Virus genome (UHGV): UHGV-1378817
Length of the DNA stretch: 64,000 nt
DNA from: a virus
Reading direction: 5' to 3' (one strand)
Shown here: piece after piece, positions 40,100 to 53,606 of the stretch
How the letters are laid out: every line of letters begins with the position of its first letter
How positions within the stretch are numbered: the stretch's first letter is position 1
Notes under the pieces: generated by a model
The model's input: the letters and a program-made list of their open reading frames with translations, nothing else
Databases searched by the model: none
What the model was told of the DNA's origin: nothing
Made by a program: the position numbers and the translations under genes

Positions 40100-41647
40100 T
40101 TAGATAAAACGCTTGAACATAGAAGGTGATGAGATTGATGGAATCACACAAGGAAGTGCTACCTCCTCTTTCTCCAGGAAATTAATCGCAGAAGCTACAC
40201 AGTCGGCCCAGTCGTCTTTTCTATTAAATGTTGATCTTTCCCCGTTGAATTTTTCAAGTTCAGTCAGAAATGCTTCCAGAGTATCAGGATGGAAACTGGA
40301 TTTTACAATCCTCACCATTCCTTGTTGGGCAAGATTGGCAAAAGGTGAGAACCTTGTCAGTTTAGATTTGTTGGAAGGCATTGGGTCTTCTTCAACCCTA
40401 AACCCTTCGGCGAGCAAGGATCTAGAGGAGGTTAAGAACTCACTCTTACCTGCCTGACCTGGGTCCACAGAGAAGACGATTATGCAATCATCACCATCAA
40501 ACTGCGCCTGTTTCCTGATGATCACATCTCGTTCACCAGCCTTTTTACAGAACTTGCCTTCCAGACCTGTGGAATACCTCCCGTCATCCACGTTCTCAGG
40601 ACAATAATCACCGGACAGGTAATAAAAGCCGTCGCTATCTTTACTTACCTTAACACTGGCGGTAAAGTCAGGAAACTTATTACCAGAAGTTCTCTCGGTT
40701 CCTGCCTTATCCCATGCCCTACAAGATACTGATCCAAGGGGCACTCTGTCGGCATCACGAAGGAAAGATCTTTGAAAATAGTTTGCACCCTCAGGCTTTG
40801 CAAACCAGTTACCATGGAGAAGCTGAGCTTTTTCAAGCTCGGGCAGACCTTCAAGGAAAGCAAGGTATTCTGGGTTGTCTCTTAAGCAGACAGGATTATC
40901 GAATATTGTTGCGCCTATAAACGAGAATGACAACGGTCTTGGCTTGATCTCCACACCCAGTCCGTTAACCGTGGTGTATTTCTCTATCAACTCTTCTTTA
41001 GAGTCTCCCCAGATAAATTCACCGTCGCGTCGGATAAAATATCTTTTCTTACCACATTTCTCCGGATCTGGATACCCTTCATCGTCCAACCACCATCTAA
41101 CCAGTTTGGCAAGCATGTGTTCTGAATCGGGGTTACAGCTGATAACCATTCTTGATGGATACTTTGACTGAGATCGCAGACGAGACATCAGATAGTCTAT
41201 CTGCTCCCATTCGAACTGCGTGCCCTCATCGAAGCAAACCATGGTATACTCAAGCCCTTGATGGTTAAGCTTATCTTGTACATACTCCATGTGGCAGTAT
41301 TTTACAACAGCTCCCTTTTTGCTTCTATCCCACTTGCCAGTGTTCGGATCAAACCGTGGAAAAATGAACTTATGATCCTTCTCTCTGAACTTTGGCTTAA
41401 TGTTTTCAGGCAGATCACTATAAATAGCTACTGCTTTAGGCCATAGTCCACCCTCACCTTCCAACTGTGGGGTTGTTCTTCGGAACATAACCACAGAGCT
41501 GTGGGGGTCATCAATAATTTTAAGTGGCATCAATTGCAAGAGGAACGACTTGCCAGACCCTGCGGCACCGCCGATTACCAAAATATCTGCATCGTTTTCG
41601 AGGATCATCTTCTGCTTTTCAGAACACGGTCCGTAAATCTTAGACAT
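40100..41647 (-). CDS. terL: terminase large subunit
   Basis: Walker A GGAAGSGKS near N-terminus (ILVIGGAAGSGKSFLLQ); 515 aa; followed by portal gene. Confidence 0.75.
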   Translation of the reverse strand: MSKIYGPCSEKQKMILENDADILVIGGAAGSGKSFLLQLMPLKIIDDPHSSVVMFRRTTPQLEGEGGLWPKAVAIYSDLPENIKPKFREKDHKFIFPRFDPNTGKWDRSKKGAVVKYCHMEYVQDKLNHQGLEYTMVCFDEGTQFEWEQIDYLMSRLRSQSKYPSRMVISCNPDSEHMLAKLVRWWLDDEGYPDPEKCGKKRYFIRRDGEFIWGDSKEELIEKYTTVNGLGVEIKPRPLSFSFIGATIFDNPVCLRDNPEYLAFLEGLPELEKAQLLHGNWFAKPEGANYFQRSFLRDADRVPLGSVSCRAWDKAGTERTSGNKFPDFTASVKVSKDSDGFYYLSGDYCPENVDDGRYSTGLEGKFCKKAGERDVIIRKQAQFDGDDCIIVFSVDPGQAGKSEFLTSSRSLLAEGFRVEEDPMPSNKSKLTRFSPFANLAQQGMVRIVKSSFHPDTLEAFLTELEKFNGERSTFNRKDDWADCVASAINFLEKEEVALPCVIPSISSPSMFKRFI

Positions 41648-41934
41648 TAACCTCTCTCCTTTGGAAACAGTGTTCTAATATAGTCTTGCAAAATGATCAA
41701 TTTAGCTCTATCATTGCTACAAGACAGATTATTATCCCTCATAATGCCAGAATTCACTGCATCTGGAGCACCTTTCTTCAAAGGCATAGCTTTAGCAGGT
41801 GGTTTCATGGCACCTTCCGGGGGTTTAACAATCAACCTTCCTACATCCGGAGGGTCAATCTTGTATTCTCTCTCAACGCTGGTTGCACACCCACATAATA
41901 ACAAGCACACAATAAACAGTGTAGCAACTCTCAT
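41647..41934 (-). CDS. outer-membrane spanin (Rz1-like lipoprotein)
   Basis: Signal peptide with Cys-containing lipobox-like LLLCGC; Pro-rich mature part; 4-nt overlap with upstream i-spanin-like gene. Confidence 0.55.
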   Translation of the reverse strand: MRVATLFIVCLLLCGCATSVEREYKIDPPDVGRLIVKPPEGAMKPPAKAMPLKKGAPDAVNSGIMRDNNLSCSNDRAKLIILQDYIRTLFPKERG

Positions 41935-42329
41935 CGATCCTCCTGATTGATACTCTCATTATAAATATCTATAAGCTGATCAGGGAGTGTTGACTTCTTG
42001 CCTTCAGGTGATTGGAGGTAGATAATCTGCTTTTCTTTACCTGCCCTCTCAGCCATATTTAATTTATCCTGCAGATCAGAAAGAGATTTTTCAAGGTTTT
42101 TAACCTCCTCTGCGTGGCCCATTTTAATTTTGTCGGCCTGCTTTTGTTGCTGATCAAGGATCCGTTCCCACTTTAACTCTGTTGCTGACACACCCTCTTG
42201 GTAGGCATCATTAAGCTTGGAGTTAAACCAATACACGGCCCCAAGATAAGCTGTACCTATCGCAGCTGCAAAAACTAAACCTTTTATGATCCCTCTATAC
42301 CTACTCAGCCATGTTAAAACTGAAATCAT
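41931..42329 (-). CDS. inner-membrane spanin (Rz-like)
   Basis: N-terminal TM helix (GLVFAAAIGTAYLGAVYWF) followed by coiled-coil periplasmic domain; paired with overlapping lipoprotein gene. Confidence 0.5.
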   Translation of the reverse strand: MISVLTWLSRYRGIIKGLVFAAAIGTAYLGAVYWFNSKLNDAYQEGVSATELKWERILDQQQKQADKIKMGHAEEVKNLEKSLSDLQDKLNMAERAGKEKQIIYLQSPEGKKSTLPDQLIDIYNESINQEDR

Positions 42330-42345
42330 TTTAAGGCTCCAGAAA

Positions 42346-42380
42346 CGAAAAAACCCCGCAGCTATACAGCTAACGGGGCG
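42346..42380 (-). terminator. candidate intrinsic terminator
   Basis: Minus transcript stem CCCCG/CGGGG with 15-nt loop followed by UUUUUUUCGUUUCUGG. Confidence 0.4.
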
Positions 42381-42434
42381 GGTTAAAATTGAGTAACCTA
42401 AATAGATCGAAACTAACTAAAAGGAGACTAATAC

Positions 42435-42704
42435 TTATCGAGGCACTCGGTGGATGATTCTAACAGTAACTGCATTTTCATTCATCAAGTATGCATCTAC
42501 ATCTCTGTAAATATAAAACTTCTGCTCACTATCAACAACACAAGCTACCGCCCCTTCAGAGTTGTCTTCAAAAAAGACCACCACTGCATCGCAGCTGAGT
42601 TCATGATATGACTCTCGAAGATTTACAGCCAGAGGATTGAAATCGTCACGAAAATCTACGGTATGGGTTGGATTTACACGCTCTACAATTTTAAGTGTAT
42701 ACAT
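42435..42704 (-). CDS. hypothetical protein (90 aa), start revised
   Basis: Track ORF 42435..42794 would overlap tRNA-Pro; internal ATG at 42704 has AAGGAA SD 8 nt upstream. Confidence 0.4.
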   Translation of the reverse strand: MYTLKIVERVNPTHTVDFRDDFNPLAVNLRESYHELSCDAVVVFFEDNSEGAVACVVDSEQKFYIYRDVDAYLMNENAVTVRIIHRVPR

Positions 42705-42750
42705 TTTAAAGGTTCCTTTTGTTTGTATATGTTTAAAGTATAACTGAAAG

Positions 42751-42827
42751 TGGTCTCCACGGAGTGATTCGAACACTCGACCTCCTGATCCCAAATCAGG
42801 CGCTCTACCAAGCTGAGCTACGCGGAG
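42751..42827 (-). tRNA. tRNA-Pro (anticodon UGG)
   Basis: Hand-folded cloverleaf: acceptor CUCCGCG/CGUGGAG (one G-U), D-arm GCUC..GAGC, anticodon loop UUUGGGA, T-arm GAGUG-UUCGAAU-CACUC, encoded CCA. Confidence 0.8.
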
Positions 42828-42838
42828 TATTTATTATT

Positions 42839-42913
42839 TGGTGGCCCTGGGTGGAATTGAACCACCGTCTGGCGATTATGAGTCGCTTGCTTGAACCTTC
42901 CAGCTACAGGGCC
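42839..42913 (-). tRNA. tRNA-Met (anticodon CAU; elongator Met or Ile2, G1-C72 paired)
   Basis: Acceptor GGCCCUG/CAGGGCC perfect, anticodon loop CUCAUAA, T-arm GGUGG-UUCAAUU-CCACC, encoded CCA. Confidence 0.75.
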
Positions 42914-42914
42914 A

Positions 42915-42990
42915 TGGTGCTGATAGCAGGACTCGAACCTGCAACCTATTGATTACAAATCAATTGCACTACCAATTGTGCTACATCAGC
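42915..42990 (-). tRNA. tRNA-Thr (anticodon UGU)
   Basis: Acceptor GCUGAUG/UAUCAGC (one G-U), D-arm GCAC..GUGC, anticodon loop UUUGUAA, T-arm GCAGG-UUCGAGU-CCUGC, encoded CCA. Confidence 0.8.
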
Positions 42991-42995
42991 AAAAA

Positions 42996-43094
42996 GGTGC
43001 TAGGTGATGGAATCGAACCACCTATGTATTCAACGACTACCTCGTCTATTTTCAGGATTAAAAATCCTCGCCCTTGCCAAAGGGCTTACCTAGC
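42996..43094 (-). ncRNA. atypical tRNA-like gene (98 nt), possible pseudo/variant tRNA with UUU anticodon-like loop
   Basis: Perfect 7-bp acceptor GCUAGGU/ACCUAGC, D-arm GCCC-UUUGGCAA-GGGC, T-arm GGUGG-UUCGAUU-CCAUC, but 3' end is CC not CCA and there is a 30-nt extra region between anticodon and T arms. Confidence 0.35.
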
Positions 43095-43100
43095 TCAGTA

Positions 43101-43189
43101 TGTTGACCATGTTGCTAGTCGGCGATGACGACTGTAACATTTGATAATCCGGTTCTGCTTCCGGCTTTCGCTTAATTACAAGGTCAACA
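43101..43189. ncRNA. candidate structured RNA element inside tRNA cluster
   Basis: 8-bp terminal helix UGUUGACC...GGUCAACA encloses about 72 nt with two internal hairpins (AGUCG/CGACU and CCGG/CCGG); does not fold as a canonical tRNA by hand. Confidence 0.2.
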
Positions 43190-43192
43190 ATA

Positions 43193-43283
43193 TGGCTGAG
43201 GGTAATGGAATCGAACCATCATCGAGTCATCCTCAACGGGACGGTTTTCAAGACCGCTTGAGCACCATTGCTCCCTACCCTCA
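43193..43283 (-). tRNA. tRNA-Ser (anticodon UGA), type II
   Basis: 91 nt; acceptor UGAGGGU/ACCCUCA, anticodon stem GCGGU/ACCGU with loop CUUGAAA, long variable arm, T-arm GAUGG-UUCGAUU-CCAUU, discriminator G, encoded CCA. Confidence 0.7.
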
Positions 43284-43397
43284 TTTATAAACAATACTGA
43301 TAATGACACTGATTTTCGAGCAGTTAGTGACTAGTATAAACGACGATAAATATCAATGCCATTATCTGTATGATTTATGCATTTAAAACTATAAATT

Positions 43398-43484
43398 TGG
43401 TGGGGAGTGGTGGAGTCGAACCACCCGAGTCGCAATGACAATAGATTTACAGTCTACACCGCTACCTCTACGGGATAACTCCCC
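43398..43484 (-). tRNA. tRNA-Tyr (anticodon GUA), type II
   Basis: 87 nt; acceptor GGGGAGU/ACUCCCC, anticodon arm GUAGA-CUGUAAA-UCUAU, long variable arm, T-arm GGUGG-UUCGACU-CCACC, encoded CCA. Confidence 0.8.
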
Positions 43485-43488
43485 AATT

Positions 43489-43563
43489 TGGCACCCCGTA
43501 CTGGACTCGAACCAGTGTCAACGGCTTAGAAGGCCGCTGCTTTATCCACTAAGCTAACAGGGC
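43489..43563 (-). tRNA. tRNA-Arg (anticodon UCU)
   Basis: Acceptor GCCCUGU/ACGGGGU (two G-U), D-arm GCUU..AAGC, anticodon arm GCGGC-CUUCUAA-GCCGU, T-arm CUGG-UUCGAGU-CCAG, encoded CCA. Confidence 0.75.
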
Positions 43564-43621
43564 ACTGGGTGGCTTTCTTTTACACCTTAGCCGCCAGAAA
43601 AGGTGGGAGACCATGTTTACA

Positions 43622-43650
43622 ATATTACACTGTTAAGCAAAGTTTGTCAA
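43622..43650 (-). promoter_or_regulatory. near-consensus sigma70-type promoter for the tRNA cluster (TTGACA-17-TAATAT)
   Basis: Minus strand reads TTGACA AACTTTGCTTAACAGTG TAATAT; predicted start about 50 nt upstream of tRNA-Arg 5' end. Confidence 0.5.
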
Positions 43651-43659
43651 GAAAATATT

Positions 43660-43998
43660 TTAGCTATTGCCAACAGGTTGTATTTCTGTGGTAAATGGCA
43701 TAAAAGGTGCTGGTTTTTCAGCCTCTTCTACTACCACCTCTTCCTCTTCACCAAACATCTCATCATATTCTTCCTGCATTCGGTCTGCCTTATCAAGAAC
43801 ATACTCTGCAATGCTTTGACGAATATTTTGTTTGGTTTTCGGGTCCAACATCAGCTCTCTTAAAACTTTGTGAGCTTCTGGAACCATCGCTATAAAAGAT
43901 TCCTTCATATCAAGGATGTTCTTCTCTAGCTGAATGGCGTTGGACTCCTCTTTCAGAGGTCTGCCTCTACGGCGACGCTTTTTAGTTGTATCCGCCAT
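43660..43998 (-). CDS. small AT-hook-type DNA-binding protein (112 aa), start revised
   Basis: ATG at 43998 with GGAGGA SD; N-terminal KKRRRRGRPLK (AT-hook-like GRP core); acidic C-terminus; track ORF extends upstream without SD. Confidence 0.45.
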   Translation of the reverse strand: MADTTKKRRRRGRPLKEESNAIQLEKNILDMKESFIAMVPEAHKVLRELMLDPKTKQNIRQSIAEYVLDKADRMQEEYDEMFGEEEEVVVEEAEKPAPFMPFTTEIQPVGNS

Positions 43999-44039
43999 GT
44001 TTCCTCCATTATCACGTGATAGGTGGATTTTATCATAGC

Positions 44040-44300
44040 AAATACTGATTGTCAAGTTCGCCGCAGGGTGGTATTCCCTGCGACTTGCCCAGCGTCCTGG
44101 ACCAGCAAGACCCAACAAGTGGGTTTTCCAGCTATACCCATTACCGCACACAGGCTCGACCTTATTACAGGTTGGCTGGGGTCACATCGTCATGTGCTGG
44201 CTGCCCCTACCATTTTAAGTGTGGTGCACTATCAAGCCCTCTAAGGGGAACTCAGCCTTCTCCGAACCCTGTTTCAAAGCATCCGGAGATAAAGCCATCA
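44040..44300. other. GC-rich non-coding island (candidate structured RNA or acquired fragment)
   Basis: Visibly GC-richer than flanking AT-rich phage DNA; local hairpin GCAGGG-UGGUAUU-CCCUGC; overlapping plus-strand ORFs lack SD/start context. Confidence 0.2.
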
Positions 44301-44346
44301 AATTCATCTTTAAATTGGATATTCATCATAATACACGAAAACAACC

Positions 44347-44589
44347 TCATTGTAAAGCACAAATAAATAAAACATACTTAATTTGTTTGTTATCAGGCTC
44401 AGGGTAGAAGTAGAAGATCTTGCTATCACCGATCTGAACACCACCATCCCAACAGCATAGCCCATAACCCGTATTCATACAAGCTAAGTCGTTGGCAAAA
44501 TCTATTGCATCATCCAGTGCACGAAATTCACCTTCATCTTCTAAATAATCCTCATTCATGGAACGAAAAACGAGCTTAACCTTAAACAT
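44347..44589 (-). CDS. hypothetical protein (80 aa)
   Basis: ORF from track; acidic, Cys-containing; no motif recognised. Confidence 0.35.
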   Translation of the reverse strand: MFKVKLVFRSMNEDYLEDEGEFRALDDAIDFANDLACMNTGYGLCCWDGGVQIGDSKIFYFYPEPDNKQIKYVLFICALQ

Positions 44590-44665
44590 AGCATTACCTG
44601 TAGACCTCGTAAGTTAAAATTGTATCACATCATATTGCAGATCTTATCAGGTAACATTATTTTTG

Positions 44666-44875
44666 TCAACAGATTCCGGCCTTATCTCGCCTGTCTGCGT
44701 ATTCTTTAATCGCAACCTCCTCGGCATGGGTGACTAAATCTTCAAAGTAACTCTCAAGCTCCTCGTCAATGTCAGGAAACCAACTCTTTTTCCTGTCAGT
44801 GTGAATCGCAGACTTGTTGAATTTATTACAGTTCTTTGCTACCGGATTGTTCATTAATCGCCCCTCAGCGTTCAT
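44666..44875 (-). CDS. hypothetical protein (69 aa)
   Basis: ORF from track, overlaps upstream gene end by 11 nt. Confidence 0.3.
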   Translation of the reverse strand: MNAEGRLMNNPVAKNCNKFNKSAIHTDRKKSWFPDIDEELESYFEDLVTHAEEVAIKEYADRRDKAGIC

Positions 44876-45443
44876 AGTAAATCTTATTTAACATTACCTC
44901 ATCCTTTGCAGAGAGAATACCGAGATATGCATCACCGAACCTACCTGCAACAACCTCTACATGATACATAACTTCGTTAATATCGTCAAGAGTGATAACT
45001 GGATGACCGTATCTCTCTGAGTATTGTCTCAGAGTGCGATGTAGGGAATCATCATCGTAGGCAGACTTTTTAATATCACAAACACGACGAATAGCCTTGA
45101 TGTCGAAAAACCCTGTGCGATACCAACCAAGAAAAAGGTTTCGTACAGTGTCAACACCTACATCAACACCGTCAAGAACCTTATCTACAAGATAGCTGTC
45201 ATCCTTTGGACCTGCTTCCTTAGTTCGAATGTAGTTGCCATCTTTTCCAGGTGACAGCTCCTTCTCATCACCAACCTGAATGCCATCATTTGGCGGTGTT
45301 AACCACTTATCCGGATGCTTACGATCACGAGCGTTAGAATGATTACGCTGGAAACCTGGCTTCCACTTGAAAGTTTTCTCCATCTGTTCTTCATTCTGAT
45401 AACGTTTTGCAATCTTTTCACGGTCATCTTTGCGTGGACTCAT
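44865..45443 (-). CDS. hypothetical protein (192 aa)
   Basis: ATG with GAGGAGG SD; basic N-terminus; first gene downstream of the long non-coding region. Confidence 0.45.
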   Translation of the reverse strand: MSPRKDDREKIAKRYQNEEQMEKTFKWKPGFQRNHSNARDRKHPDKWLTPPNDGIQVGDEKELSPGKDGNYIRTKEAGPKDDSYLVDKVLDGVDVGVDTVRNLFLGWYRTGFFDIKAIRRVCDIKKSAYDDDSLHRTLRQYSERYGHPVITLDDINEVMYHVEVVAGRFGDAYLGILSAKDEVMLNKIYYER

Positions 45444-45539
45444 AACTACCTCCTCTTCAAGTTATAGAAAAACTCACTGTATCGCTTTGTAACGAGCTTT
45501 TCTATCAAACTGGTGCGATTGCCTTACCTGGTATAGTTT

Positions 45540-45820
45540 ATATAGCTGTGGAGCGATTTAGGTGCCTTCTTGTCCGTTTCCACACATAAACTTCATCCAA
45601 GCTCGCGCGGGAGACTCTCAACCGACTCCTTACGGCGCTGGCAAGCTTTCGTCGGTGGTCCACATCAGTGCTCGGCCTTTGGCCTGCGCTATCGCTTCGC
45701 TCCCACACATGTTAACAGACCTGCATGTATGCACTTCTGTTATTGTGTGCACCAGGGAGGCCCGGCATCTCGCCCCTCGTAGGCGAGTGCCAATGAAGGG
45801 CCGACACTACCCATAGTAAG
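45540..45820. other. GC-rich non-coding island (candidate structured RNA)
   Basis: GC-rich block within an AT-rich intergenic region; plus-strand ORFs 45562..45816 and 45570..45782 lack SD and look like composition artefacts. Confidence 0.25.
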
Positions 45821-45846
45821 TAATAAATTTAAAACATGGTACTTAG

Positions 45847-45904
45847 GATCTAGTATATTCTACATAAGTTAAGTATATGTACTTAGTACCATAAGTACTA
45901 GATC
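45847..45904. repeat. 9-bp inverted repeat (GATCTAGTA ... TACTAGATC) spanning an AT-rich tract
   Basis: Arms at 45847-45855 and 45896-45904 separated by 40 nt of AT-rich sequence containing repeated GTACTTAG. Confidence 0.4.
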
Positions 45905-45946
45905 TTTTATTTTTTATTATTTAGTTATTTTAGTTATATTCTTTAT

Positions 45947-46029
45947 GTGTCCGTATCACGGACAGTTAGTGTCCGTATTACGGGCAGATGTGTCCGCGTG
46001 ACGGACAGTAGTGTCCGTATCACGGACAG
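45947..46029. repeat. four phased dyad-symmetric iterons (candidate operator array or origin iterons)
   Basis: GTGTCCGTATCACGGACAG at 45947, variants at 45969 and 45990, exact repeat at 46011; each has arms TGTCCGT/ACGGACA; spacing 22, 21, 21 bp. Confidence 0.6.
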
Positions 46030-46103
46030 TTACTAACCTCTGTTCCATAGCGAACATAAAACATACGAATCCTTATAGTACAGATATTTAAGTTTTTACT
46101 GGT

Positions 46104-46454: not shown

Positions 46455-46501
46455 ATCTCCTGATTCTCCTTGTGTGGCAATTTTCTTTAAAATAGCAGGG
46501 A

Positions 46502-47056: not shown

Positions 47057-47063
47057 ACATTCC

Positions 47064-47474
47064 TCATTTAAGTTTAATGCAGTTTTTAAGCTGGCGTTCC
47101 ATACGATCCACAACCCTGTCTGGAACATCATGAATGCTTTTATTACCGTGTCGGTTTTCAACCACGATTACGGTATAATTATACCCATGGCTGATTGCCA
47201 TGTCAACATATTCTTGCACATGTTTTTCTTTTGTAAACGTATTACTTACCACGATACGGTCGTATCCCATACGCATCATATCTTCTACGTTATCTTTGCA
47301 CCATTTTGCTGCAAGTGTTACTTTACTTGCATCCCAGTTGTAATTGCCGTCATCGTCGTACCAGAACATGTCGTTCTCAAAATGTGGATACAGACCTTCT
47401 AAAGATAGCGCATTTGCCAGTGTTGATTTGCCAGACCCTGGTAGACCACGCACGATATATAGCATTTTAGACAT
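47064..47474 (-). CDS. P-loop kinase, polynucleotide kinase-like, start revised
   Basis: Walker A GLPGSGKST (as in T4 Pnk kinase domain); ATG at 47474 with GGAGG SD; track ORF extends to 47531. Confidence 0.6.
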   Translation of the reverse strand: MSKMLYIVRGLPGSGKSTLANALSLEGLYPHFENDMFWYDDDGNYNWDASKVTLAAKWCKDNVEDMMRMGYDRIVVSNTFTKEKHVQEYVDMAISHGYNYTVIVVENRHGNKSIHDVPDRVVDRMERQLKNCIKLK

Positions 47475-47502
47475 AGTAATCCTCCGTTTTAATTTCAAAG
47501 AT

Positions 47503-47531
47503 AGTATACCTAACTGTTTTGTTAATTTCAA
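47503..47531 (-). promoter_or_regulatory. candidate promoter TTGAAA-17-TATACT for kinase/phosphatase operon
   Basis: Minus strand reads TTGAAA TTAACAAAACAGTTAGG TATACT in the 100-nt divergent intergenic region. Confidence 0.4.
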
Positions 47532-47592
47532 GTGTTGACACTAGGTTATTTGTGTGGCAGGATAGACTGACAAAATGACAAATGAGGAACGT

Positions 47593-48510
47593 ATGATGAA
47601 GTATTTTAATGCAGACGACCTAGTTGACAAAGGTCTTGTAACCAGTAGATATTACCCAGATCTTGGGTTAAAGATCTATAAATACGCCAGAAAAGTATTT
47701 TACAACAATTTATGGCATTTGTCCCCTCGTTTACTGGAGTGCCGAGGCATTGTTGTCGGTAATGAAGGAAATGTTGTGGCATGGCCCTTCACAAAAGTGT
47801 TTAACTTGGGAGAAAACTCCACCAACCTGCCTGACAATAAGCTTGTGACGGCGGTAGAGAAAAAGAACGGATTCCTTGGTGTGGTATCATCTCATAAAGG
47901 TGAACTATTGTTCTCAACAACCGGATCTCTTGATTCTCCATATTGTAACCTTGCAAAGGAAACCATCCAGGAGCAATGCGGTAATTTAGATCTTATCAAG
48001 AAGGTTATGGGCAATGAAAACATGACATTCATGTTTGAAATTTGTCACCCTTCAGATCCGCATATTGTTCAGGAAGATCATGGCGCATATTTGATAGGTT
48101 GCAGGTATAATGATTCTGGAATAATGCTACCAGAGGCAGCTTTAGATGGGATTGCCAAATACCTTGGTGCAAAACGTCCTCACACTGTGCGTGAAATTCC
48201 GTTCAGCTATGCAAAAGAATTGGCTGCAGAAACAAGAGGTGAAGGGTATATGATTCGTAAGCCTTACTATCCTTATGATCTGCAGCTGAAGATCAAGTCT
48301 CCATACTATCTGGCACGGAAGGCCGTAATGAGGGGTAAAGCTTGGAAGATTTGGGATGATGATATCTTTAAACGTGTTGACGAAGAGTTTTACGGCATGG
48401 TAAACTTCATTCGCAACAACTACACAGAGGATGTATGGAACTGCCTCCTGGAGCAGGAACGCCGTGAGATACTTGACTACTATTTCCACAACGAGGACTA
48501 TATGCAATGA
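47593..48510 (+). CDS. nucleotidyltransferase-superfamily ligase, RNA-ligase-like
   Basis: Motif I KKNGF (KxNG), motif IV-like EGYMIRK, motif V-like LKIKSP; start taken at ATG 47593 after GAGGA (track 47575); a TTGACA -35-like hexamer lies upstream at 47535. Confidence 0.5.
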   Translation: MMKYFNADDLVDKGLVTSRYYPDLGLKIYKYARKVFYNNLWHLSPRLLECRGIVVGNEGNVVAWPFTKVFNLGENSTNLPDNKLVTAVEKKNGFLGVVSSHKGELLFSTTGSLDSPYCNLAKETIQEQCGNLDLIKKVMGNENMTFMFEICHPSDPHIVQEDHGAYLIGCRYNDSGIMLPEAALDGIAKYLGAKRPHTVREIPFSYAKELAAETRGEGYMIRKPYYPYDLQLKIKSPYYLARKAVMRGKAWKIWDDDIFKRVDEEFYGMVNFIRNNYTEDVWNCLLEQERREILDYYFHNEDYMQ

Positions 48511-48857
48511 AGAAGTTGATTGTGTGGCTGGATGACTTGAGAGACCCGTCAAATTATGGGCTCCCAGACGCTATTTGGCTAAAGAATTCCTCCGAGTTTA
48601 TGGATTTTATTAACGATAATAGAAAGCTCTACAGACGCGTTTCTGAGTGGCATATGGACAACGACCTTGGAGAGGTATTAGAAGGGTACGATTGTCTATC
48701 TATGTTGGAGGAAAAATTTGTATTTGGTAAGCCTCCTGTAGTTGACAACGTGAAGATTTTCGTGCATACTTCTAACCCATCAGCTGCTCGTAAATTCATG
48801 CTTGCAGCTGACTCGTTTAAAAAGTTTGGAATAGAGATTAAACAAAACATCTACTGA
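48507..48857 (+). CDS. hypothetical protein (116 aa), receiver-like fold suspected
   Basis: ATGA overlap with upstream gene; pattern IVWLDDLRD...WHMDNDLG...VKIFVHTSNP loosely resembles a CheY-like receiver topology (weak). Confidence 0.4.
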   Translation: MKKLIVWLDDLRDPSNYGLPDAIWLKNSSEFMDFINDNRKLYRRVSEWHMDNDLGEVLEGYDCLSMLEEKFVFGKPPVVDNVKIFVHTSNPSAARKFMLAADSFKKFGIEIKQNIY

Positions 48858-48865
48858 GGACACTT

Positions 48866-49627
48866 ATGCGACGACTTATTATTATCTCCGGTGCTGGTTT
48901 GAGCGCTGAATCTGGTATTCCCACTTTCCGATCTGGTAGCACTGCAATGTGGGAGAATTTCAGCATCGATGAGGTGTGCAACATCCACACCTTTGCCAAG
49001 AACTACTATAAGGTGCATGACTTTTACAATGCACGTCGTGTAGCTCTAGGCAGTGTTGAGCCTAACCTTGCACATCTTCGGATCGCTGAGTGGTATTCCC
49101 GCTGGTCTGGTCGTGTGATCAACCTTACCACCAATGTAGATGATTTGCTGGAGCGTGCTGGTGTAAAACATGAAGATATTTTACATGTCCACGGGTATTT
49201 GCCAGAAATAGTCTATGAGGACGATGAAGGAAGTGACGTCATTAAGGACATTGGATACTCTGAGGTAGACGCAGGAAAGTATACCTGGGTTAAGCCTAAT
49301 GTGGTGTTCTTCGGAGAAGTAGCTCCGAAGTATACAGACATGTATGACCTGTTGACTTCTCTTACGAGCAATGATATGGTTATCCTTGTAGGGTGCTCCA
49401 ACACAGTTATCAATTTTAACTGGGAGCTATTCCCTGCCTGCAATAAGGGAACAAAACTGCTGATCGTTAACAAATACGACTCACAGCAGCTAGGGGAGAA
49501 TGGCATTTCACGTAGTGATATTTACCAATATGAGGATCGCGGCATCCCAGTTTGGTTTAACGGGGCGGTTGATGCTTTCTCTGATAAAACATTCATTGAG
49601 ACCGTAGAAAACTTTATGGAACTTTAA
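48866..49627 (+). CDS. Sir2-family NAD-dependent protein (sirtuin-like)
   Basis: GAGLSAESGIPTFR matches the sirtuin GAGIS..SGIP.FR motif; later TTNVDDLLERAG and HG..P blocks; GAGGA SD. Confidence 0.7.
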   Translation: MRRLIIISGAGLSAESGIPTFRSGSTAMWENFSIDEVCNIHTFAKNYYKVHDFYNARRVALGSVEPNLAHLRIAEWYSRWSGRVINLTTNVDDLLERAGVKHEDILHVHGYLPEIVYEDDEGSDVIKDIGYSEVDAGKYTWVKPNVVFFGEVAPKYTDMYDLLTSLTSNDMVILVGCSNTVINFNWELFPACNKGTKLLIVNKYDSQQLGENGISRSDIYQYEDRGIPVWFNGAVDAFSDKTFIETVENFMEL

Positions 49628-49640
49628 AAGGAGACCTTTA

Positions 49641-50354
49641 ATGCTGAATACCAAATTAATTGACAACCTGGAAAAACTGTCCCAACCTGAAAACTACCTT
49701 TGGTCTGCCAACTGGGTGGAAAACTGGAACCGTGTGGCAGCTAAAGTGAAAAAATCATACACACCATTCGAATTACAGCTTAGCTTCATTGAGGAAGAGT
49801 TCAATGAAGTTTTGGAAGAGCTGGAGAAAGGTGATGGCGGAGATCACCTGCTAAAAGAGGCCTGCGATCTTCACGTTGTCACAAGTTATGCCGCTTATCT
49901 TGTTAATGATAATCACGAAAAGTGGTCAAACCTGTTTGATAATCCACAGGGTCTTAAGTTCAAGATCGGTGAGTTCTATGATACACTGATCGCTGCGAAA
50001 AACACCTCTAAGCAAAAAGCGTCCGCTTACCGCTTAGCAGAGTTGTCAACAGCTTTGCTGTTCCAGCTTCGCGGCGATGTGTGCGGGATGATGCGTAAGG
50101 TTCTCAAATCGAATGACAGCAAGTTTGCACGGGTCAACCATCTACGGTATTCACACGGTGCCAGTGCAGATATGCCTGCTGAACAACTCATCGAGTTGGA
50201 GATTAAAGATCTTGAGCGACGCTTTGATGGTCGATATGAAGGTTTTGTTGCTAAGGAAGAATTCTACAACGGTAATAAAGTTATCATATTCCTTGACAGC
50301 AAAGGTAAGATCATGAAGCCTTCGAGCTTCAAGGATGTAACAGAGTATATTTAA
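49641..50354 (+). CDS. MazG-like all-alpha NTP pyrophosphohydrolase domain protein
   Basis: EEEFNEVLEELEKGD ... EACDLH fits the ExxE...ExxD metal-binding pattern; AAGGAG SD. Confidence 0.4.
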   Translation: MLNTKLIDNLEKLSQPENYLWSANWVENWNRVAAKVKKSYTPFELQLSFIEEEFNEVLEELEKGDGGDHLLKEACDLHVVTSYAAYLVNDNHEKWSNLFDNPQGLKFKIGEFYDTLIAAKNTSKQKASAYRLAELSTALLFQLRGDVCGMMRKVLKSNDSKFARVNHLRYSHGASADMPAEQLIELEIKDLERRFDGRYEGFVAKEEFYNGNKVIIFLDSKGKIMKPSSFKDVTEYI

Positions 50355-50360
50355 CAACAT

Positions 50361-50386
50361 AGCCGGGATTACCCGGCTTTACTTGT
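50361..50386 (+). terminator. intrinsic terminator
   Basis: AGCCGGG-AUUA-CCCGGCU followed by UUUACUUGUUG immediately after stop of 49641..50354. Confidence 0.5.
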
Positions 50387-50417
50387 TGTGGAAAGTATGC
50401 AAGTGAGGAAGATAGTT

Positions 50418-50726
50418 ATGTACAAGCACTCTAGAGATCTTGAAAACGATGCTGTGTTTGGGGATCAGATGAAAGAGTTGGTTAAACTCATAGGCAGGAT
50501 AGAGGATAAGTTTGACACTAAGATCTACATCGACAGCAAAGTATTCAACCACAAAATATGGACAAATCTGTGTGTTGGACTACATGGAGATAAAGATGTG
50601 GTAAATTTAGTTGTAATTAAGTTCATAGTGTGGCAGAATAAAACTATAAATTATTACGATCCACACCTGCTTGTTTACCCGATAAAAGACCTATTAGATA
50701 AGGAGGACTGCAGTGCCGTTATTTAA
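50418..50726 (+). CDS. hypothetical protein (102 aa), start revised
   Basis: Track start GTG 50388 lies inside terminator tail; ATG 50418 has GAGGAAG SD. Confidence 0.4.
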   Translation: MYKHSRDLENDAVFGDQMKELVKLIGRIEDKFDTKIYIDSKVFNHKIWTNLCVGLHGDKDVVNLVVIKFIVWQNKTINYYDPHLLVYPIKDLLDKEDCSAVI

Positions 50727-50982
50727 TCTTGCTAAACCTGTAGAAGCACACCAGTTTGACGGAAGCTCTTCATCAGTATCTGATCTGCAACGGTGGATTG
50801 ATACAGGTGTGTTTACATCGTCACCTGTTCGTACCAGAGATCTTCGTCGCATGTGTGAGCTTGTCGAGCCGTTTGGTAACCTGGTCTTGTACCAGGGAGA
50901 TTGGTTAGTTGACTTTATGGGAGACTGGTTGGTAATGAGTAAAGAAGAGATGTTTAACATTTTTAAGGAAGAGGCCGAGTAA
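50713..50982 (+). CDS. hypothetical protein (89 aa)
   Basis: GTG start with AAGGAGGA SD 6 nt upstream. Confidence 0.4.
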   Translation: MPLFNLAKPVEAHQFDGSSSSVSDLQRWIDTGVFTSSPVRTRDLRRMCELVEPFGNLVLYQGDWLVDFMGDWLVMSKEEMFNIFKEEAE

Positions 50983-52265
50983 TGCATCAGATCAAAACAA
51001 CACTGTACGCACTGAACAAAGATGGCAGCTACCAACAGTGGAAAGTATTCACGGATGGTGATAAGGTTATCGTAGAGTTTGGCAAGCTTGATGGTAAACT
51101 GCAATACAAAGAGACGGTATGCACGCCTAAGAACGTAGGTCGTGCCAACGAGACTACCGCTGAGCAACAGGCCGAGCTTGAGGCTATTAGCAAGTGGGAA
51201 AAACAAGTCCGTCTTGGGTATGTTGAGAATATGGAAGATTGCGAGCAGGGTGTTGACCTTTTACCCATGCTGGTGCATGACTACCTGAAGCGTGGCAAGG
51301 CTCTTAAATTACCTTGCTGGATCTTGCGTAAGTTAGATGGCCTTCGTCTACTTGTTGTTTTCCAGAATGGTGAGCCCAAATTTATTTCCCGTGGTAATAA
51401 GTCCTACCCTATTCAAGGAAAGCTTCTGGAGCAACTTCGCTCTTTCCACCTCACCACTGGGATTAAACAGCTCGACGGAGAGCTCTATATTCATGGTCTG
51501 CCTCTGCAGAAAATAGTTTCTCTTGCTAAACGATGGCGCACACAGGAAGAAATTCAGGCCGAGATCGATAAAGACTACAAGGCAGATAAAAAACGCCGTC
51601 AGGCTGCTATTAAGGCAGGTTTAGCAACATACAAAAACTTCAATAAGATGGACATTCCTGTTGATGTTGAGCCTGTTCGTGATGATTTGCGTTACGGAGG
51701 GTATTGCAGCTACGACTTAGAGTATCATATTTTCGATATCCCTAGCGATAAGGTGTGGTGGGATCCTGAAACAGAGTCTGGGCGCTGTAAGGATCTTATG
51801 GAGGCAAATGGTGCCATTTCTTCTTTGATGCTTGATCATATTAAGGTTGTTGATGCAGAGCTTGCATATACAGTTGATCGGTGCGAAGAGTCTGTTGGTA
51901 TATTTATGTCTGAGGGATATGAAGGTACCATTATGCGTAACTTCTGTGGTAAGTATGAGTATGGTCAGCGAACATCTGAAGCATTGAAATGGAAAAAGTT
52001 CAACGACGCAGAGGTGAAAGTTATTGACGTTGAGAAAGATAAGAATGATGAAGGTGTTCTTATCTGTGTTGACAAGGAGGGTGTTGTTGTTAAAATGAAG
52101 ATGAAAGGCACGCACGAGGAGCGTAGCTATGACAGGATGCAGGAAATGATCGGCAAGTTTGTCACCTTCAAATATCAAGCAAGGACAGAAGACAACAATT
52201 ACCAATTCCCTGTCGGTATCTGCGTCCGAAATGTTAACCCGGACACTTGGGAGGTGCTGGAATGA
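50982..52265 (+). CDS. ATP-dependent DNA ligase
   Basis: Motif I KLDGLR (KxDGxR adenylation lysine) at about aa 115; 427 aa. Confidence 0.7.
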   Translation: MHQIKTTLYALNKDGSYQQWKVFTDGDKVIVEFGKLDGKLQYKETVCTPKNVGRANETTAEQQAELEAISKWEKQVRLGYVENMEDCEQGVDLLPMLVHDYLKRGKALKLPCWILRKLDGLRLLVVFQNGEPKFISRGNKSYPIQGKLLEQLRSFHLTTGIKQLDGELYIHGLPLQKIVSLAKRWRTQEEIQAEIDKDYKADKKRRQAAIKAGLATYKNFNKMDIPVDVEPVRDDLRYGGYCSYDLEYHIFDIPSDKVWWDPETESGRCKDLMEANGAISSLMLDHIKVVDAELAYTVDRCEESVGIFMSEGYEGTIMRNFCGKYEYGQRTSEALKWKKFNDAEVKVIDVEKDKNDEGVLICVDKEGVVVKMKMKGTHEERSYDRMQEMIGKFVTFKYQARTEDNNYQFPVGICVRNVNPDTWEVLE

Positions 52266-52279
52266 TGTAGTGAGGTTCA

Positions 52280-52327
52280 GTAGGTAACGGTAGCCAATTG
52301 AATGATGGTTTTTCAATTGGCACCTAC
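52280..52327 (+). other. long imperfect hairpin downstream of DNA ligase gene
   Basis: Inner 10-bp stem GCCAATTGAA/TTCAATTGGC with 9-nt loop plus outer 6-bp GTAGGT/ACCTAC and a 7-nt bulge; no U tract follows. Confidence 0.3.
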
Positions 52328-52389
52328 ATAACCACACTATGTAGTGTTGTTGATCGGGTTAGTTATGAGTAAACTGGAGAGTATGAAAG

Positions 52390-52860
52390 ATGAAACTTGA
52401 TAAAAATGTTCAACGAAAAGCTTTCTTGGATATGATCGCATATTCGGAAGGCACAGATAATGGTAGACAACCTACCAAGGATCGGGGGTACGATGTCATA
52501 GTCGGAGGCAAGCTGTTCAGCGATTACAGCAAGCATCCCGGTGTTTACGTTAAGCTAAATGCTAAGCTTACCTCCTCCGCTGCTGGGCGTTACCAGGTTT
52601 TGGAGAAGTTTGCTAAACACTACATGAAACAGTTAGGATTACCAGATTTTGGCCCTGCCAGTCAGGACAAGATTGCGTTGCAACTGATCCGTGAGTGCAA
52701 GGCTCTCGCCGACATTGACGAAGGGCGTATCCACGAAGCTATCCGCAAATGCCGTTCCCGCTGGGCTTCGTTACCCGGTGCCGGATATGGTCAGCATGAA
52801 CAGAAGATCGAGAAGTTGATCGAGGTGTTTAAAAAGGCAGGCGGCATTGTTCTGGATTGA
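52390..52860 (+). CDS. endolysin, lambda R-type lytic transglycosylase
   Basis: Near-colinear match to lambda R as I recall it: QRKAFLDM..SEGTDNGRQ..GYDVIVGG..AGRYQ..KQLGL.DF..WASLPGAGYGQ. Confidence 0.85.
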   Translation: MKLDKNVQRKAFLDMIAYSEGTDNGRQPTKDRGYDVIVGGKLFSDYSKHPGVYVKLNAKLTSSAAGRYQVLEKFAKHYMKQLGLPDFGPASQDKIALQLIRECKALADIDEGRIHEAIRKCRSRWASLPGAGYGQHEQKIEKLIEVFKKAGGIVLD

Positions 52861-52863
52861 TCA

Positions 52864-52892
52864 TTGACATAACCACACGGACGTGGTATTGT
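52864..52892 (+). promoter_or_regulatory. candidate promoter TTGACA-17-TATTGT
   Basis: TTGACA at 52864-52869, 17-nt spacer, TATTGT at 52887-52892, then AGGAGGG SD and ATG 52924. Confidence 0.4.
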
Positions 52893-52923
52893 TACCTCAT
52901 AAGATGTTCAGGAGGGTTTAACC

Positions 52924-53130
52924 ATGAAAGATTTTCTGTTGGCAATTTTGTTCATGGCAGCATGTCTGTCCTGTGGTGTCGTGTTTGCAGGTGAAACAGC
53001 GTATCTTGTCGATGTGTATCGGGACAATGGTAAACGTATTTGCCTTTATGAGACAAGCCAAGGTGAGCTCTACGAGCTTGTGAAACAAGGCGAGGCAGGT
53101 TCCTGCCCTCGCACCCATTTCTTTGAATAA
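52924..53130 (+). CDS. small secreted/lipoprotein-like protein (68 aa)
   Basis: N-terminal signal peptide LLAILFMAACLSCG with Cys near cleavage region; strong SD; own promoter; directly downstream of endolysin. Confidence 0.5.
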   Translation: MKDFLLAILFMAACLSCGVVFAGETAYLVDVYRDNGKRICLYETSQGELYELVKQGEAGSCPRTHFFE

Positions 53131-53139
53131 GGGGGATAC

Positions 53140-53604: not shown

Positions 53605-53606
53605 GT

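What the first reader, a model, noticed from the sequence alone, without database searches (positions are those of the whole stretch)
41647..53130. Lysis genes are split: spanins in the late module, endolysin about 10 kb away on the other strand, no obvious holin beside either
An Rz/Rz1-like overlapping pair sits just upstream of the terminase gene on the minus strand, while the lambda-R-type endolysin is in the plus-strand block. No class I/II holin-like small membrane protein is adjacent to the endolysin; instead a 68-aa signal-peptide or lipoprotein-like gene with its own promoter follows it. That small protein could be a lysis regulator or a superinfection-exclusion lipoprotein.
Basis: partly seen in the sequence, partly recalled or inferred. 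Interest (0 to 1): 0.45.

Follow-up and report, generated by a model that had tools for sequence, protein, structure and literature searches.

The report
Scattered lysis genes of rV5-like phage
The window is part of an rV5-like E. coli phage whose cell-bursting genes lie far apart on the genome with no recognisable holin beside them, a layout published for this phage group in 2013, so the finding is real but ordinary.

Summary
The window is about 98% identical to Vequintavirus (rV5-like) coliphages. A two-gene spanin pair (41931-42329 and 41647-41934, minus strand) sits directly upstream of the large terminase gene and is translationally coupled to it. A lambda-R-type endolysin with no export signal (52390-52860, plus strand) lies 10.5 kb away. 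No holin-like ORF lies beside either locus in any of the six frames.

All of this is already published. The rV5 genome paper (2013) names gp89 as the lysin, notes that no holin homologue exists, and proposes the unlinked 78-aa two-TMD protein gp129 as holin "as in phage T4". It also lists the same promoter (P090) in front of the 68-aa gene. Later papers annotate the spanins next to the terminase gene and repeat that the holin is unidentified. The gp129 position falls about 11 kb beyond the window end.

What I add concerns the 68-aa protein (rV5 gp90). It is neither a lipoprotein nor a holin. It is a Sec-secreted mini-protein of about 46 aa, beta-rich, with two invariant cysteines. It is core to the whole subfamily Vequintavirinae. 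In other genera it occupies the same ligase-to-exonuclease block with no endolysin next to it, so the adjacency is genus-specific. Two other conserved small membrane proteins lie in the late tail-fibre operon and are alternative holin candidates. Interest is low.

The parts
40100..41647 (-). Large terminase subunit, 515 aa. It is uninterrupted here, with no intron or HNH insertion.
   Evidence: ORF. Annotated as terminase in relatives. Its ATG overlaps the o-spanin stop codon (TAATG).
41647..41934 (-). o-spanin (rV5 gp66 equivalent), 95 aa. Signal with lipobox L-C-G-C16, Ala at +2, Pro-rich mature region, single periplasmic Cys72.
   Evidence: phrog_1267 'Rz-like spanin' E=1.3e-22. Annotated o-spanin in phage inoa. 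Sequence features. The rv5 o-spanin family is listed by Kongari et al..
41931..42329 (-). i-spanin (rV5 gp67 equivalent), 132 aa. N-terminal TMD at about residues 13-35, charged helical periplasmic domain, no Cys.
   Evidence: phrog_4297 'Rz-like spanin' E=1.6e-49. Annotated i-spanin in inoa. Its stop overlaps the o-spanin start as ATGA, with an AGGAGG ribosome-binding site inside its 3' end.
42347..42379 (-). Intrinsic-terminator-like hairpin plus U6, about 18 nt upstream of the i-spanin start.
   Evidence: Sequence. RNA fold -16.9 kcal/mol, z = -3.4, 0 of 200 shuffles fold as well.
42435..42704 (-). 89-aa hypothetical protein (rV5 gp68 equivalent) with no TMD. Not a holin.
   Evidence: phrog_8729, unknown function. 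No hydrophobic peak.
42751..43563 (-). Cluster of 7 tRNA genes between the spanin-terminase unit and the upstream small genes.
   Evidence: ARAGORN and Rfam.
50982..52265 (+). ATP-dependent DNA ligase, the gene immediately upstream of the endolysin.
   Evidence: ORF. Annotated as ligase in relatives.
52390..52860 (+). Endolysin (rV5 gp89 equivalent), 156 aa. Lambda-R-type lytic transglycosylase, soluble, with no signal or SAR segment.
   Evidence: PDB 1AM7 and 3D3D (lambda lysozyme), E about 1e-56 over residues 4-154. phrog_90 endolysin E=4.7e-56. No hydrophobic peak.
52864..52892 (+). Sigma-70-type promoter with an extended -10 (TTGACA-17-TATTGT preceded by TG) in front of the 68-aa gene. This is rV5 P090.
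   Evidence: Consensus scan. The same sequence is listed as P090 in rV5 Table S4.
52924..53130 (+). 68-aa secreted mini-protein (rV5 gp90 equivalent). Cleavable Sec signal peptide, predicted cut at about A22|G23. The mature part is 46 aa, has four beta strands and two invariant Cys (C40, C61).
   Evidence: phrog_4641, unknown function. Alignments A1 and A2. Distant homologues. AlphaFold2 pLDDT 82. No fold match.
53140..53604 (+). HNH endonuclease downstream of the 68-aa gene.
   Evidence: phrog_5200 E=2.6e-71.
52326..52337 (+). First copy of the exact 12-mer ACATAACCACAC. The second copy is at 52867-52878, inside the P090 promoter spacer. The two copies bracket the endolysin gene.
   Evidence: These are the only two exact copies in the window. 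Similarity extends over about 27 nt.
4417..4731 (-). 104-aa membrane protein (rV5 gp31 equivalent). One N-terminal TMD plus a coiled-coil tail. It lies in the late operon, directly after the tail-fibre assembly gene. In-window alternative holin or lysis-accessory candidate.
   Evidence: phrog_5345. Conserved across Vequintavirinae. rV5 Table S3 lists it as 'membrane protein, 1 TMD'.
3006..3272 (-). 88-aa membrane protein (rV5 gp29 equivalent). Two weakly hydrophobic helices followed by a variable charged C-terminal tail. It lies in the late operon. In-window alternative holin candidate.
   Evidence: phrog_1322 'membrane protein'. Alignment A4. Hydropathy. Low-confidence helical model. Always found in tail-fibre or baseplate modules.

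Best explanation
This is the standard, already described lysis-gene layout of rV5-like (Vequintavirus) myophages. It is a T4-style dispersed system, not a lambda-style cassette.

Shown:
- The i-spanin and o-spanin genes sit at the head of a translationally coupled i-spanin/o-spanin/terminase unit on the late (minus) strand.
- The endolysin is a soluble lambda-R-type lytic transglycosylase. It is encoded in the plus-strand DNA-metabolism block, between the ligase gene and an HNH endonuclease gene.
- The endolysin has no export signal.

Inferred:
- The endolysin accumulates in the cytoplasm and needs a hole-forming holin to reach the cell wall. After that the spanin complex disrupts the outer membrane.
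- The holin gene is unlinked to both loci. The published candidate is rV5 gp129 (78 aa, 2 TMDs, charged C-terminus). It lies about 22 kb downstream of the endolysin, roughly 11 kb beyond this window. I give it about 35%.
- The conserved late-operon membrane proteins at 3006-3272 and 4417-4731 get about 30% between them. Some other protein gets the rest.

The 68-aa gene after the endolysin is neither a holin nor a lipoprotein. It encodes a Sec-secreted 46-aa periplasmic beta mini-protein, probably disulfide-bonded, expressed from its own sigma-70 extended -10 promoter. It is an ancestral resident of the ligase-to-exonuclease block throughout Vequintavirinae. The lambda-R-type lysin gene lies next to it only in the genus Vequintavirus.

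My best guess (about 50%) is that it is a periplasmic accessory factor made independently of lysis, for superinfection exclusion or envelope or host modulation, and not a dedicated endolysin partner.
For: Identity of the window:
- About 98% identical over 12.6 kb to Vequintavirus genomes. The gene-for-gene annotation in inoa, HdK5 and LL12 is the same.

Spanins:
- PHROG hits, sequence features and the ATGA and TAATG junctions.
- rv5 is listed in the 'separated' architecture class.
- The CB7 paper states that the rV5, PVP-SE1 and CB7 spanins lie next to the terminase gene, outside any lysis cassette.

Endolysin:
- Lambda lysozyme 1AM7, E=1.5e-56. No hydrophobic segment.

No neighbouring holin:
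-.

Literature:
- P090 promoter.
- LL12 and Gotham papers: holin not identified.
- I found the gp129 equivalent independently in LL12. It is restricted to the genus.

68-aa protein:
- Variable h-region against an invariant mature domain; the N-terminal Cys residues are not conserved.
- AXA cleavage sites in distant homologues. A sig_peptide feature in PBES 02.
- Two invariant Cys residues. AlphaFold2 beta-meander model, pLDDT 82.
- Family present across the subfamily. Same genomic block with no lysin adjacent in SSBI34, ChuuTotoro, PBES 02 and KE22.
Against: - No holin has been shown experimentally for any rV5-like phage, so the 'needs a holin' step and every candidate are inference.
- The positively charged loop of gp129 (SRRRVK) between its two TMDs fits a class II holin topology poorly (sequence, my reading). 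Its gene also lies among small, probably early genes.
- The 68-aa gene is next to the endolysin in about 120 Vequintavirus genomes, so a genus-specific functional link cannot be excluded.
- SignalP, LipoP and DeepTMHMM could not be run. The signal-peptide call rests on alignment logic.
- Temporal classes (early or late) are inferred from gene context, not from transcript data.
Confidence: 0.8

Rival explanations
1. The 68-aa secreted protein is a lysis regulator functionally coupled to the endolysin. It would act either as a T4 RI-like periplasmic antiholin or as a periplasmic inhibitor ('immunity' protein) of the lambda-R-type transglycosylase.
For: - It lies immediately downstream of the endolysin in about 120 Vequintavirus genomes.
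- It is exported to the periplasm, as T4 RI and Spackle are.
- The phage carries rIIA and rIIB homologues.
- A shared 12-mer brackets the endolysin gene and lies inside the 68-aa gene's promoter.
Against: - The family is conserved across Vequintavirinae genera that, according to the literature, use other endolysin types. There it has no lysin next to it.
- No sequence or fold similarity to RI, Spackle or known lysozyme inhibitors.
- No T-like holin with a periplasmic domain was found for it to bind.
Confidence: 0.12
2. The real holin is one or both of the conserved late-operon membrane proteins in the tail-fibre module (88 aa at 3006-3272, 104 aa at 4417-4731), not gp129. This would parallel T4, where the holin gene t follows tail-fibre gene 38.
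For: - Both lie in the late structural operon, which fits late timing.
- The 88-aa family has two helices plus a variable, highly charged C-terminal tail, a classic holin trait.
- Both are conserved across Vequintavirinae. The 88-aa family also occurs in phi92-like, phAPEC8-like and Aeromonas phages.
- In PVP-SE1 and KB57 a third protein (157 aa; annotated as a 4-TMD membrane protein in PVP-SE1) sits between them.
- Neither is flagged as virion-associated in the rV5 gene table.
- The T4 gene order comes from established knowledge, not from a tool result.
Against: - Neither matches any annotated holin family.
- The helices of the 88-aa protein are only weakly hydrophobic (Kyte-Doolittle (KD) hydropathy 0.95-1.27) and the model is low confidence (pLDDT 57).
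- Strong sequence conservation and constant linkage to tail-fibre and baseplate genes also fit a role in morphogenesis or receptor masking.
- The 104-aa protein is predicted N-out/C-in with a cytoplasmic coiled coil, which is unlike known holin classes.
Confidence: 0.3
3. The 68-aa protein is itself the holin: a single-TMD holin encoded next to its endolysin.
For: It is adjacent to the endolysin, it is small, and it has a strongly hydrophobic N-terminal segment (KD 2.64). rV5 and BASEL records annotate it as 'putative membrane protein'.
Against: - The hydrophobic segment is the least conserved part of the protein and ends in an AXA-type cleavage site in all homologues.
- The conserved part is a beta domain with two Cys residues, typical of a periplasmic protein.
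- There is no charged cytoplasmic tail.
- It is present, and unlinked to lysins, in other genera.
Confidence: 0.03
4. Lysis in these phages does not depend on a canonical holin. A Sec-exported SleB-like cell-wall hydrolase (LL12 gp2, outside the window) or another route would start wall degradation, with the lambda-R-type enzyme released secondarily.
For: LL12 gp2 has a signal peptide plus Pfam Hydrolase_2 (E=2e-19) and PHROG endolysin hits. Two muralytic enzymes are also reported for the relatives BME3 and PVP-SE1.
Against: Soluble lambda-R-type endolysins are holin-dependent wherever they have been studied (established knowledge). The SleB-like gene lies next to rIIA in an apparently early region. 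There is no experimental support.
Confidence: 0.05

Closest known systems
Escherichia phage rV5 (Vequintavirus) lysis genes: gp66/gp67 spanins, gp89 lysin, gp90 membrane protein with promoter P090, gp129 putative holin (Kropinski et al. 2013, PMC3606486)
   Same: Same genes in the same order at about 97-98% identity. Same promoter sequence before the 68-aa gene. Same absence of a holin next to the lysin.
   Different: The terminase gene is uninterrupted in this window, whereas rV5, LL12, inoa and HdK5 carry introns or homing-endonuclease insertions. The -10 hexamer is TATTGT here and TATTTT in rV5. The gp129 region is outside the window.
Phage T4 dispersed lysis genes (e, t, pseT.3/pseT.2 spanins, rI, rIII)
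   Same: Endolysin, spanins and the presumed holin are unlinked. The spanin genes have the 'separated' architecture, and Cys is present only in the o-spanin. rIIA and rIIB homologues are present.
   Different: No homologue of T4 T, RI or RIII was detected. The endolysin is a lambda-R-type transglycosylase, not a T4 E muramidase. The spanins are fused into the terminase operon.
Phage lambda S-R-Rz/Rz1 lysis cassette
   Same: The endolysin is a close homologue of lambda R (E about 1e-56, catalytic-Glu motif conserved). The spanin pair is a two-component type with the same logic.
   Different: There is no S-type holin upstream, the genes are not clustered, and the o-spanin gene is not embedded in the i-spanin gene.
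T4 RI antiholin and T4 Spackle (small exported periplasmic phage proteins)
   Same: The 68-aa protein is likewise a small phage protein exported to the periplasm, with conserved Cys residues.
   Different: No sequence or fold similarity was found. It is predicted to be all-beta. It has no demonstrated partner.

Membership tests
Two-component spanin (Rz/Rz1-type i-spanin + o-spanin) | The i-spanin has an N-terminal TMD followed by a helical, charged periplasmic domain. | tested here: met
   Hydrophobic peak at residues 13-30 (KD 1.66) followed by a charged helical-type sequence. phrog_4297 'Rz-like spanin' E=1.6e-49.
Two-component spanin (Rz/Rz1-type i-spanin + o-spanin) | The o-spanin has a lipoprotein signal with a lipobox Cys and no inner-membrane retention residue at +2. 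| tested here: met
   MRVATLFIVCLLLCGC|ATS: lipobox L-C-G-C16 with Ala at +2. phrog_1267 E=1.3e-22. LipoP was not run.
Two-component spanin (Rz/Rz1-type i-spanin + o-spanin) | The two genes are adjacent, in an embedded, overlapped or separated architecture. | tested here: met
   ATGA stop/start overlap. rv5 is listed among the 'separated' families.
Two-component spanin (Rz/Rz1-type i-spanin + o-spanin) | At least one periplasmic Cys is available for a homotypic intermolecular disulfide. | tested here: met
   The o-spanin has Cys72 in its mature part. The i-spanin has none, as in the T4 family.
Two-component spanin (Rz/Rz1-type i-spanin + o-spanin) | Required for outer-membrane disruption; complements an Rz/Rz1 defect. 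| not testable with these tools
   This needs genetics.
Lambda R-type endolysin (lytic transglycosylase, GH104) | Full-length homology to lambda lysozyme with a conserved catalytic Glu. | tested here: met
   1AM7 E=1.5e-56 over residues 4-154. The 'SEGTDNGRQ' motif is aligned and conserved.
Lambda R-type endolysin (lytic transglycosylase, GH104) | Soluble cytoplasmic enzyme with no signal or SAR domain, and therefore holin-dependent. | tested here: met
   No 17-residue window reaches KD 0.9. Holin dependence is inferred from the family.
Holin (class I, II or III), tested on the 68-aa protein | At least one stable TMD retained in the inner membrane. | tested here: not met
   The single hydrophobic segment is variable among homologues and ends in an AXA-type signal-peptidase site. 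A sig_peptide is annotated in PBES 02. This rests on an alignment argument; no predictor was run.
Holin (class I, II or III), tested on the 68-aa protein | Hydrophilic, highly charged cytoplasmic C-terminal tail. | tested here: not met
   The C-terminal 46 aa form a conserved beta domain with two Cys residues.
Bacterial lipoprotein, tested on the 68-aa protein | Conserved lipobox [LVI][ASTVI][GAS]C at the end of the signal peptide. | tested here: not met
   Cys14 and Cys17 are absent in P0005-P0010 and in all distant homologues, while the mature domain is conserved.
T4 RI-type antiholin, tested on the 68-aa protein | Homology to RI, and a cognate holin with a periplasmic domain. | tested here: not met
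   No RI-like family hit. No T-like protein appeared among the genome-wide TMD proteins.
Class II holin, tested on rV5 gp129 (outside the window) | Small protein with two TMDs and a charged C-terminus. | tested here: met
   LL12 94058-94294: 78 aa, two peaks (KD 2.94 and 2.58), last 15 residues +6/-4. Proposed as holin.
Class II holin, tested on rV5 gp129 (outside the window) | Hole-forming activity that releases the endolysin; late expression. | not testable with these tools
   I found no experimental data.

The most novel reading that the evidence does not exclude
Vequintavirinae, and perhaps the related phi92-like and phAPEC8-like phages, might use an undescribed holin type. It would be encoded by the conserved small membrane proteins in the tail-fibre module (window 3006-3272 and/or 4417-4731). 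The subfamily-wide secreted 46-aa mini-protein with two conserved Cys (52924-53130) would then be its periplasmic regulator, a new antiholin or exclusion factor.
Probability: 0.07. Interest if true: 0.55.

Novelty: already known. Interest (0 to 1): 0.14.

Why it matters
As stated, the finding adds nothing. The split arrangement, the missing holin, the promoter in front of the small gene and the T4 comparison are all in the 2013 rV5 paper and in later genome announcements.

One small question remains open. No holin has been shown experimentally for rV5-like phages, which are widely used in phage-therapy and biocontrol cocktails. The short list assembled here can be tested with a standard lambda S-complementation assay. 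It comprises gp129 outside the window and the 88-aa and 104-aa late-operon membrane proteins inside it.

Re-describing the 68-aa 'membrane protein' as a conserved secreted mini-protein with two conserved Cys is a modest correction to public annotation.

Tried and rejected
- Pfam and NCBIfam scans of the endolysin, spanins, 68-aa, 88-aa, 104-aa and 78-aa proteins gave nothing above threshold. Even the endolysin was missed by Pfam, so I confirmed it against the PDB instead.
- Foldseek of the 68-aa model against the PDB found only generic small beta-barrel matches, best E=0.05. This was uninformative.
- An exhaustive profile search with the 68-aa alignment returned only 10 representatives. A few long multi-repeat proteins matched short stretches, and I treated those as spurious.
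- Context look-ups for two distant homologues landed on contigs too short to help.
- The weak XhlA hit of the 104-aa protein (E=0.012, 16 bits against a cutoff of 34.7) was rejected as coiled-coil noise.
- The lipoprotein reading of the 68-aa protein was rejected on conservation grounds.
- The 12-mer that brackets the endolysin gene hints at a duplicated promoter element or a cassette insertion. Another exact 12-mer pair occurs by chance-like repetition in the same 1.8 kb, so I did not build on it.
- The AlphaFold2 model of the 88-aa protein was low confidence (pLDDT 57). I used it only for secondary structure.

Full report
**What the window is.** A megablast of 41000-53700 gives 99% coverage at about 98% identity to many Escherichia phages of the genus Vequintavirus (rV5-like myophages, about 136-139 kb), such as bov10K2, slur12/16, LL12 and inoa. 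Annotated relatives show the same gene order over the whole region. GC skew flips at about 47.5 kb, where transcription diverges. The minus-strand genes to the left are the structural and terminase block. The plus-strand genes to the right are DNA-metabolism genes.

**Checking the observation.**
- The large terminase gene is at 40100-41647 (-).
- Directly upstream are a 95-aa o-spanin (41647-41934) and a 132-aa i-spanin (41931-42329). They match PHROG 'Rz-like spanin' families at E=1.3e-22 and 1.6e-49.
- The o-spanin has a lipobox L-C-G-C16, Ala at +2, a Pro-rich mature part and one periplasmic Cys. The i-spanin has one N-terminal TMD and no Cys.
- The junctions are ATGA (i-spanin stop / o-spanin start) and TAATG (o-spanin stop / terminase start), so the three genes are translationally coupled. 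A 4-nt overlap is the 'separated' T4-like architecture, and Kongari et al. list rv5 there. It is not a lambda-style embedded pair.
- A strong terminator-like hairpin plus U6 lies just upstream of the i-spanin.
- The endolysin (52390-52860, +) matches lambda lysozyme 1AM7 at E=1.5e-56, with the catalytic-Glu motif conserved. It has no hydrophobic segment at all.
- The 68-aa ORF (52924-53130) follows after 63 nt that contain TTGACA-17-TATTGT with an extended -10 TG.
- Six-frame hydropathy scans around both loci found no other TMD-bearing gene.

**It is already published.**
- The rV5 genome paper (PMC3606486) says that gp89 is 'an obvious lysin' and that no holin homologue was found. It reports that TMHMM and Phobius agreed on two TMDs only for gp129 (78 aa, Lys/Arg-rich C-terminus). 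[quoted passage not shown]
Its Table S3 lists gp67 and gp31 as 1-TMD membrane proteins and gp129 as putative holin.
[quoted passage not shown] The Gotham announcement says the same.
- The CB7 paper states that in CB7, rV5 and PVP-SE1 the spanin pair is not part of a lysis cassette but lies next to the large terminase gene.
- The gp129 equivalent (LL12 94058-94294) would fall at about window coordinate 74.9 kb, roughly 11 kb past the window end.

**The 68-aa protein.** This is the part where I add something.
- Close homologues at 61-97% identity keep the mature part almost invariant from T25 onward. The N-terminal hydrophobic stretch drifts freely, and Cys14 and Cys17 are lost.
- More distant homologues were found by tblastn and by an exhaustive profile search. 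They have the same plan: a typical signal peptide ending in AHA|G, ASA|S, AQA|S, AEA|A or ARA|T, then T-x-x-L-x-D-x-Y...C-x-Y...GSCP with two invariant Cys. PBES 02 even carries a sig_peptide feature.
- The AlphaFold2 model (pLDDT 82) shows a signal helix followed by a four-stranded beta unit. Foldseek finds nothing significant, and no Pfam, PHROG-function or NCBIfam assignment exists.
- The protein is therefore a Sec-secreted mini-protein of about 46 aa with two conserved Cys. It is not a lipoprotein and not a holin.
- The family is found across Vequintavirinae (229 phage records: Escherichia, Klebsiella, Cronobacter, Salmonella, Pectobacterium, Erwinia and others).
- In SSBI34, ChuuTotoro, PBES 02 and KE22 it occupies the same ligase/MazG-to-HNH/exonuclease block with no endolysin beside it. 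Other genera use different endolysin types according to the literature.
- The adjacency to the lambda-R-type lysin is therefore specific to the genus Vequintavirus. This argues against an obligate functional pair.
- An exact 12-mer (ACATAACCACAC) occurs only twice in the window, once on each side of the endolysin gene. That would fit the lysin gene having been placed next to an existing promoter. The evidence is thin.

**Where the holin might be.** A genome-wide hydropathy scan of LL12 plus the window recovered the membrane-protein set of the rV5 paper.
- gp129 is confined to the genus and is fairly variable (53-100% identity), as holins often are. Its inter-TMD loop is strongly positive, and it lies among small, probably early genes.
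- Inside the window there are two further candidates in the late tail-fibre operon.
- The 104-aa protein at 4417-4731 has one TMD plus a coiled coil and lies directly after the tail-fibre assembly gene.
- The 88-aa protein at 3006-3272 has two weakly hydrophobic helices and a variable, highly charged C-terminal tail.
- Both are conserved across the subfamily. The 88-aa family extends to phi92-like, phAPEC8-like and Aeromonas phages and is always found in tail-fibre or baseplate modules.
- In PVP-SE1 and KB57 a 157-aa protein, annotated as a 4-TMD membrane protein in PVP-SE1, lies between them.
- Their position recalls T4 t next to gene 38 (my knowledge). Constant linkage to fibre genes fits a morphogenetic or receptor-masking role equally well.
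- None matches any known holin family.

**Mechanism.**
- Shown: the identities of the spanins, the endolysin and the exported small protein, their arrangement, and the lack of an adjacent holin.
- Inferred: the soluble transglycosylase accumulates in the cytoplasm until an unlinked holin permeabilises the inner membrane, and the spanin complex then breaks the outer membrane. The holin is gp129 at about 35%, a late-operon membrane protein at about 30%, and another protein otherwise.
- Inferred: the 68-aa protein is made from its own sigma-70 promoter and acts in the periplasm. It is more likely an exclusion or envelope-modulating factor (about 50%) than a lysis regulator (about 12%).

**Verdict.** Novelty: already known. 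Interest: about 0.14. The residual value lies in a testable short list for the still-unproven holin and a corrected description of gp90.

Noticed in passing
window 40100-41647 (-): The large terminase gene is a single uninterrupted 515-aa ORF here. In rV5, LL12, inoa and HdK5 it is split by introns or a homing-endonuclease insertion, which is why many relatives align in two pieces.
   Followed up: partly
window 42347-42379 (-): A strong intrinsic-terminator-like hairpin plus U6 (-16.9 kcal/mol, z = -3.4) lies about 18 nt before the i-spanin start, leaving no room for a promoter after it. The spanin-terminase unit would therefore be transcribed by read-through or antitermination. This terminator is not in the rV5 paper's list.
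   Followed up: partly
window 52326-52337 and 52867-52878 (+): The exact 12-mer ACATAACCACAC occurs only twice in the 64 kb. One copy is upstream of the endolysin and the other is inside the P090 promoter spacer, and similarity extends over about 27 nt. It could be a duplicated regulatory element or a trace of insertion of the lysin gene.
   Followed up: partly
window 52069-52096 (+): A near-consensus sigma-70 promoter-like site (TTGACA-16-TAAAAT with TG, 11 of 12 matches) lies inside the 3' end of the ligase gene, about 300 nt upstream of the endolysin. It is not listed in the rV5 paper and could drive the endolysin.
   Followed up: no
window 42996-43094 (-): A 99-nt tRNA-like gene that ARAGORN reports with a four-base anticodon 'atcc' (tRNA-???). 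It scores 35.5 bits on the Rfam tRNA model and is annotated tRNA-OTHER in relatives.
   Followed up: partly
L003 1980-2480 (LL12 gp2, outside the window): A second muralytic enzyme: a SleB-like cell-wall hydrolase (Pfam Hydrolase_2, E=2e-19) with an N-terminal signal peptide, encoded next to rIIA.
   Followed up: partly
L008 2312-2785 (PVP-SE1 gp43) and L009 2312-2785 (KB57_043): In Seunavirus and Mydovirus a 157-aa protein (phrog_7451; annotated as a 4-TMD membrane protein in PVP-SE1) sits between the homologues of the 104-aa and 88-aa membrane proteins. In rV5-like phages a tail-fibre gene occupies that position instead.
   Followed up: partly
phage collection records MG0656xx ('Campylobacter phage A116, A12a, C15 ...'): About 16-21 records labelled as Campylobacter jejuni phages carry rV5-like genes at roughly 87-99% protein identity to this coliphage. 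This suggests mislabelled or contaminated entries.
   Followed up: no
window 45450-46100: A stretch of about 650 nt with no convincing ORF lies between the 192-aa gene and the putative transcriptional regulator. Repeat regions are annotated at the equivalent place in phage inoa.
   Followed up: no
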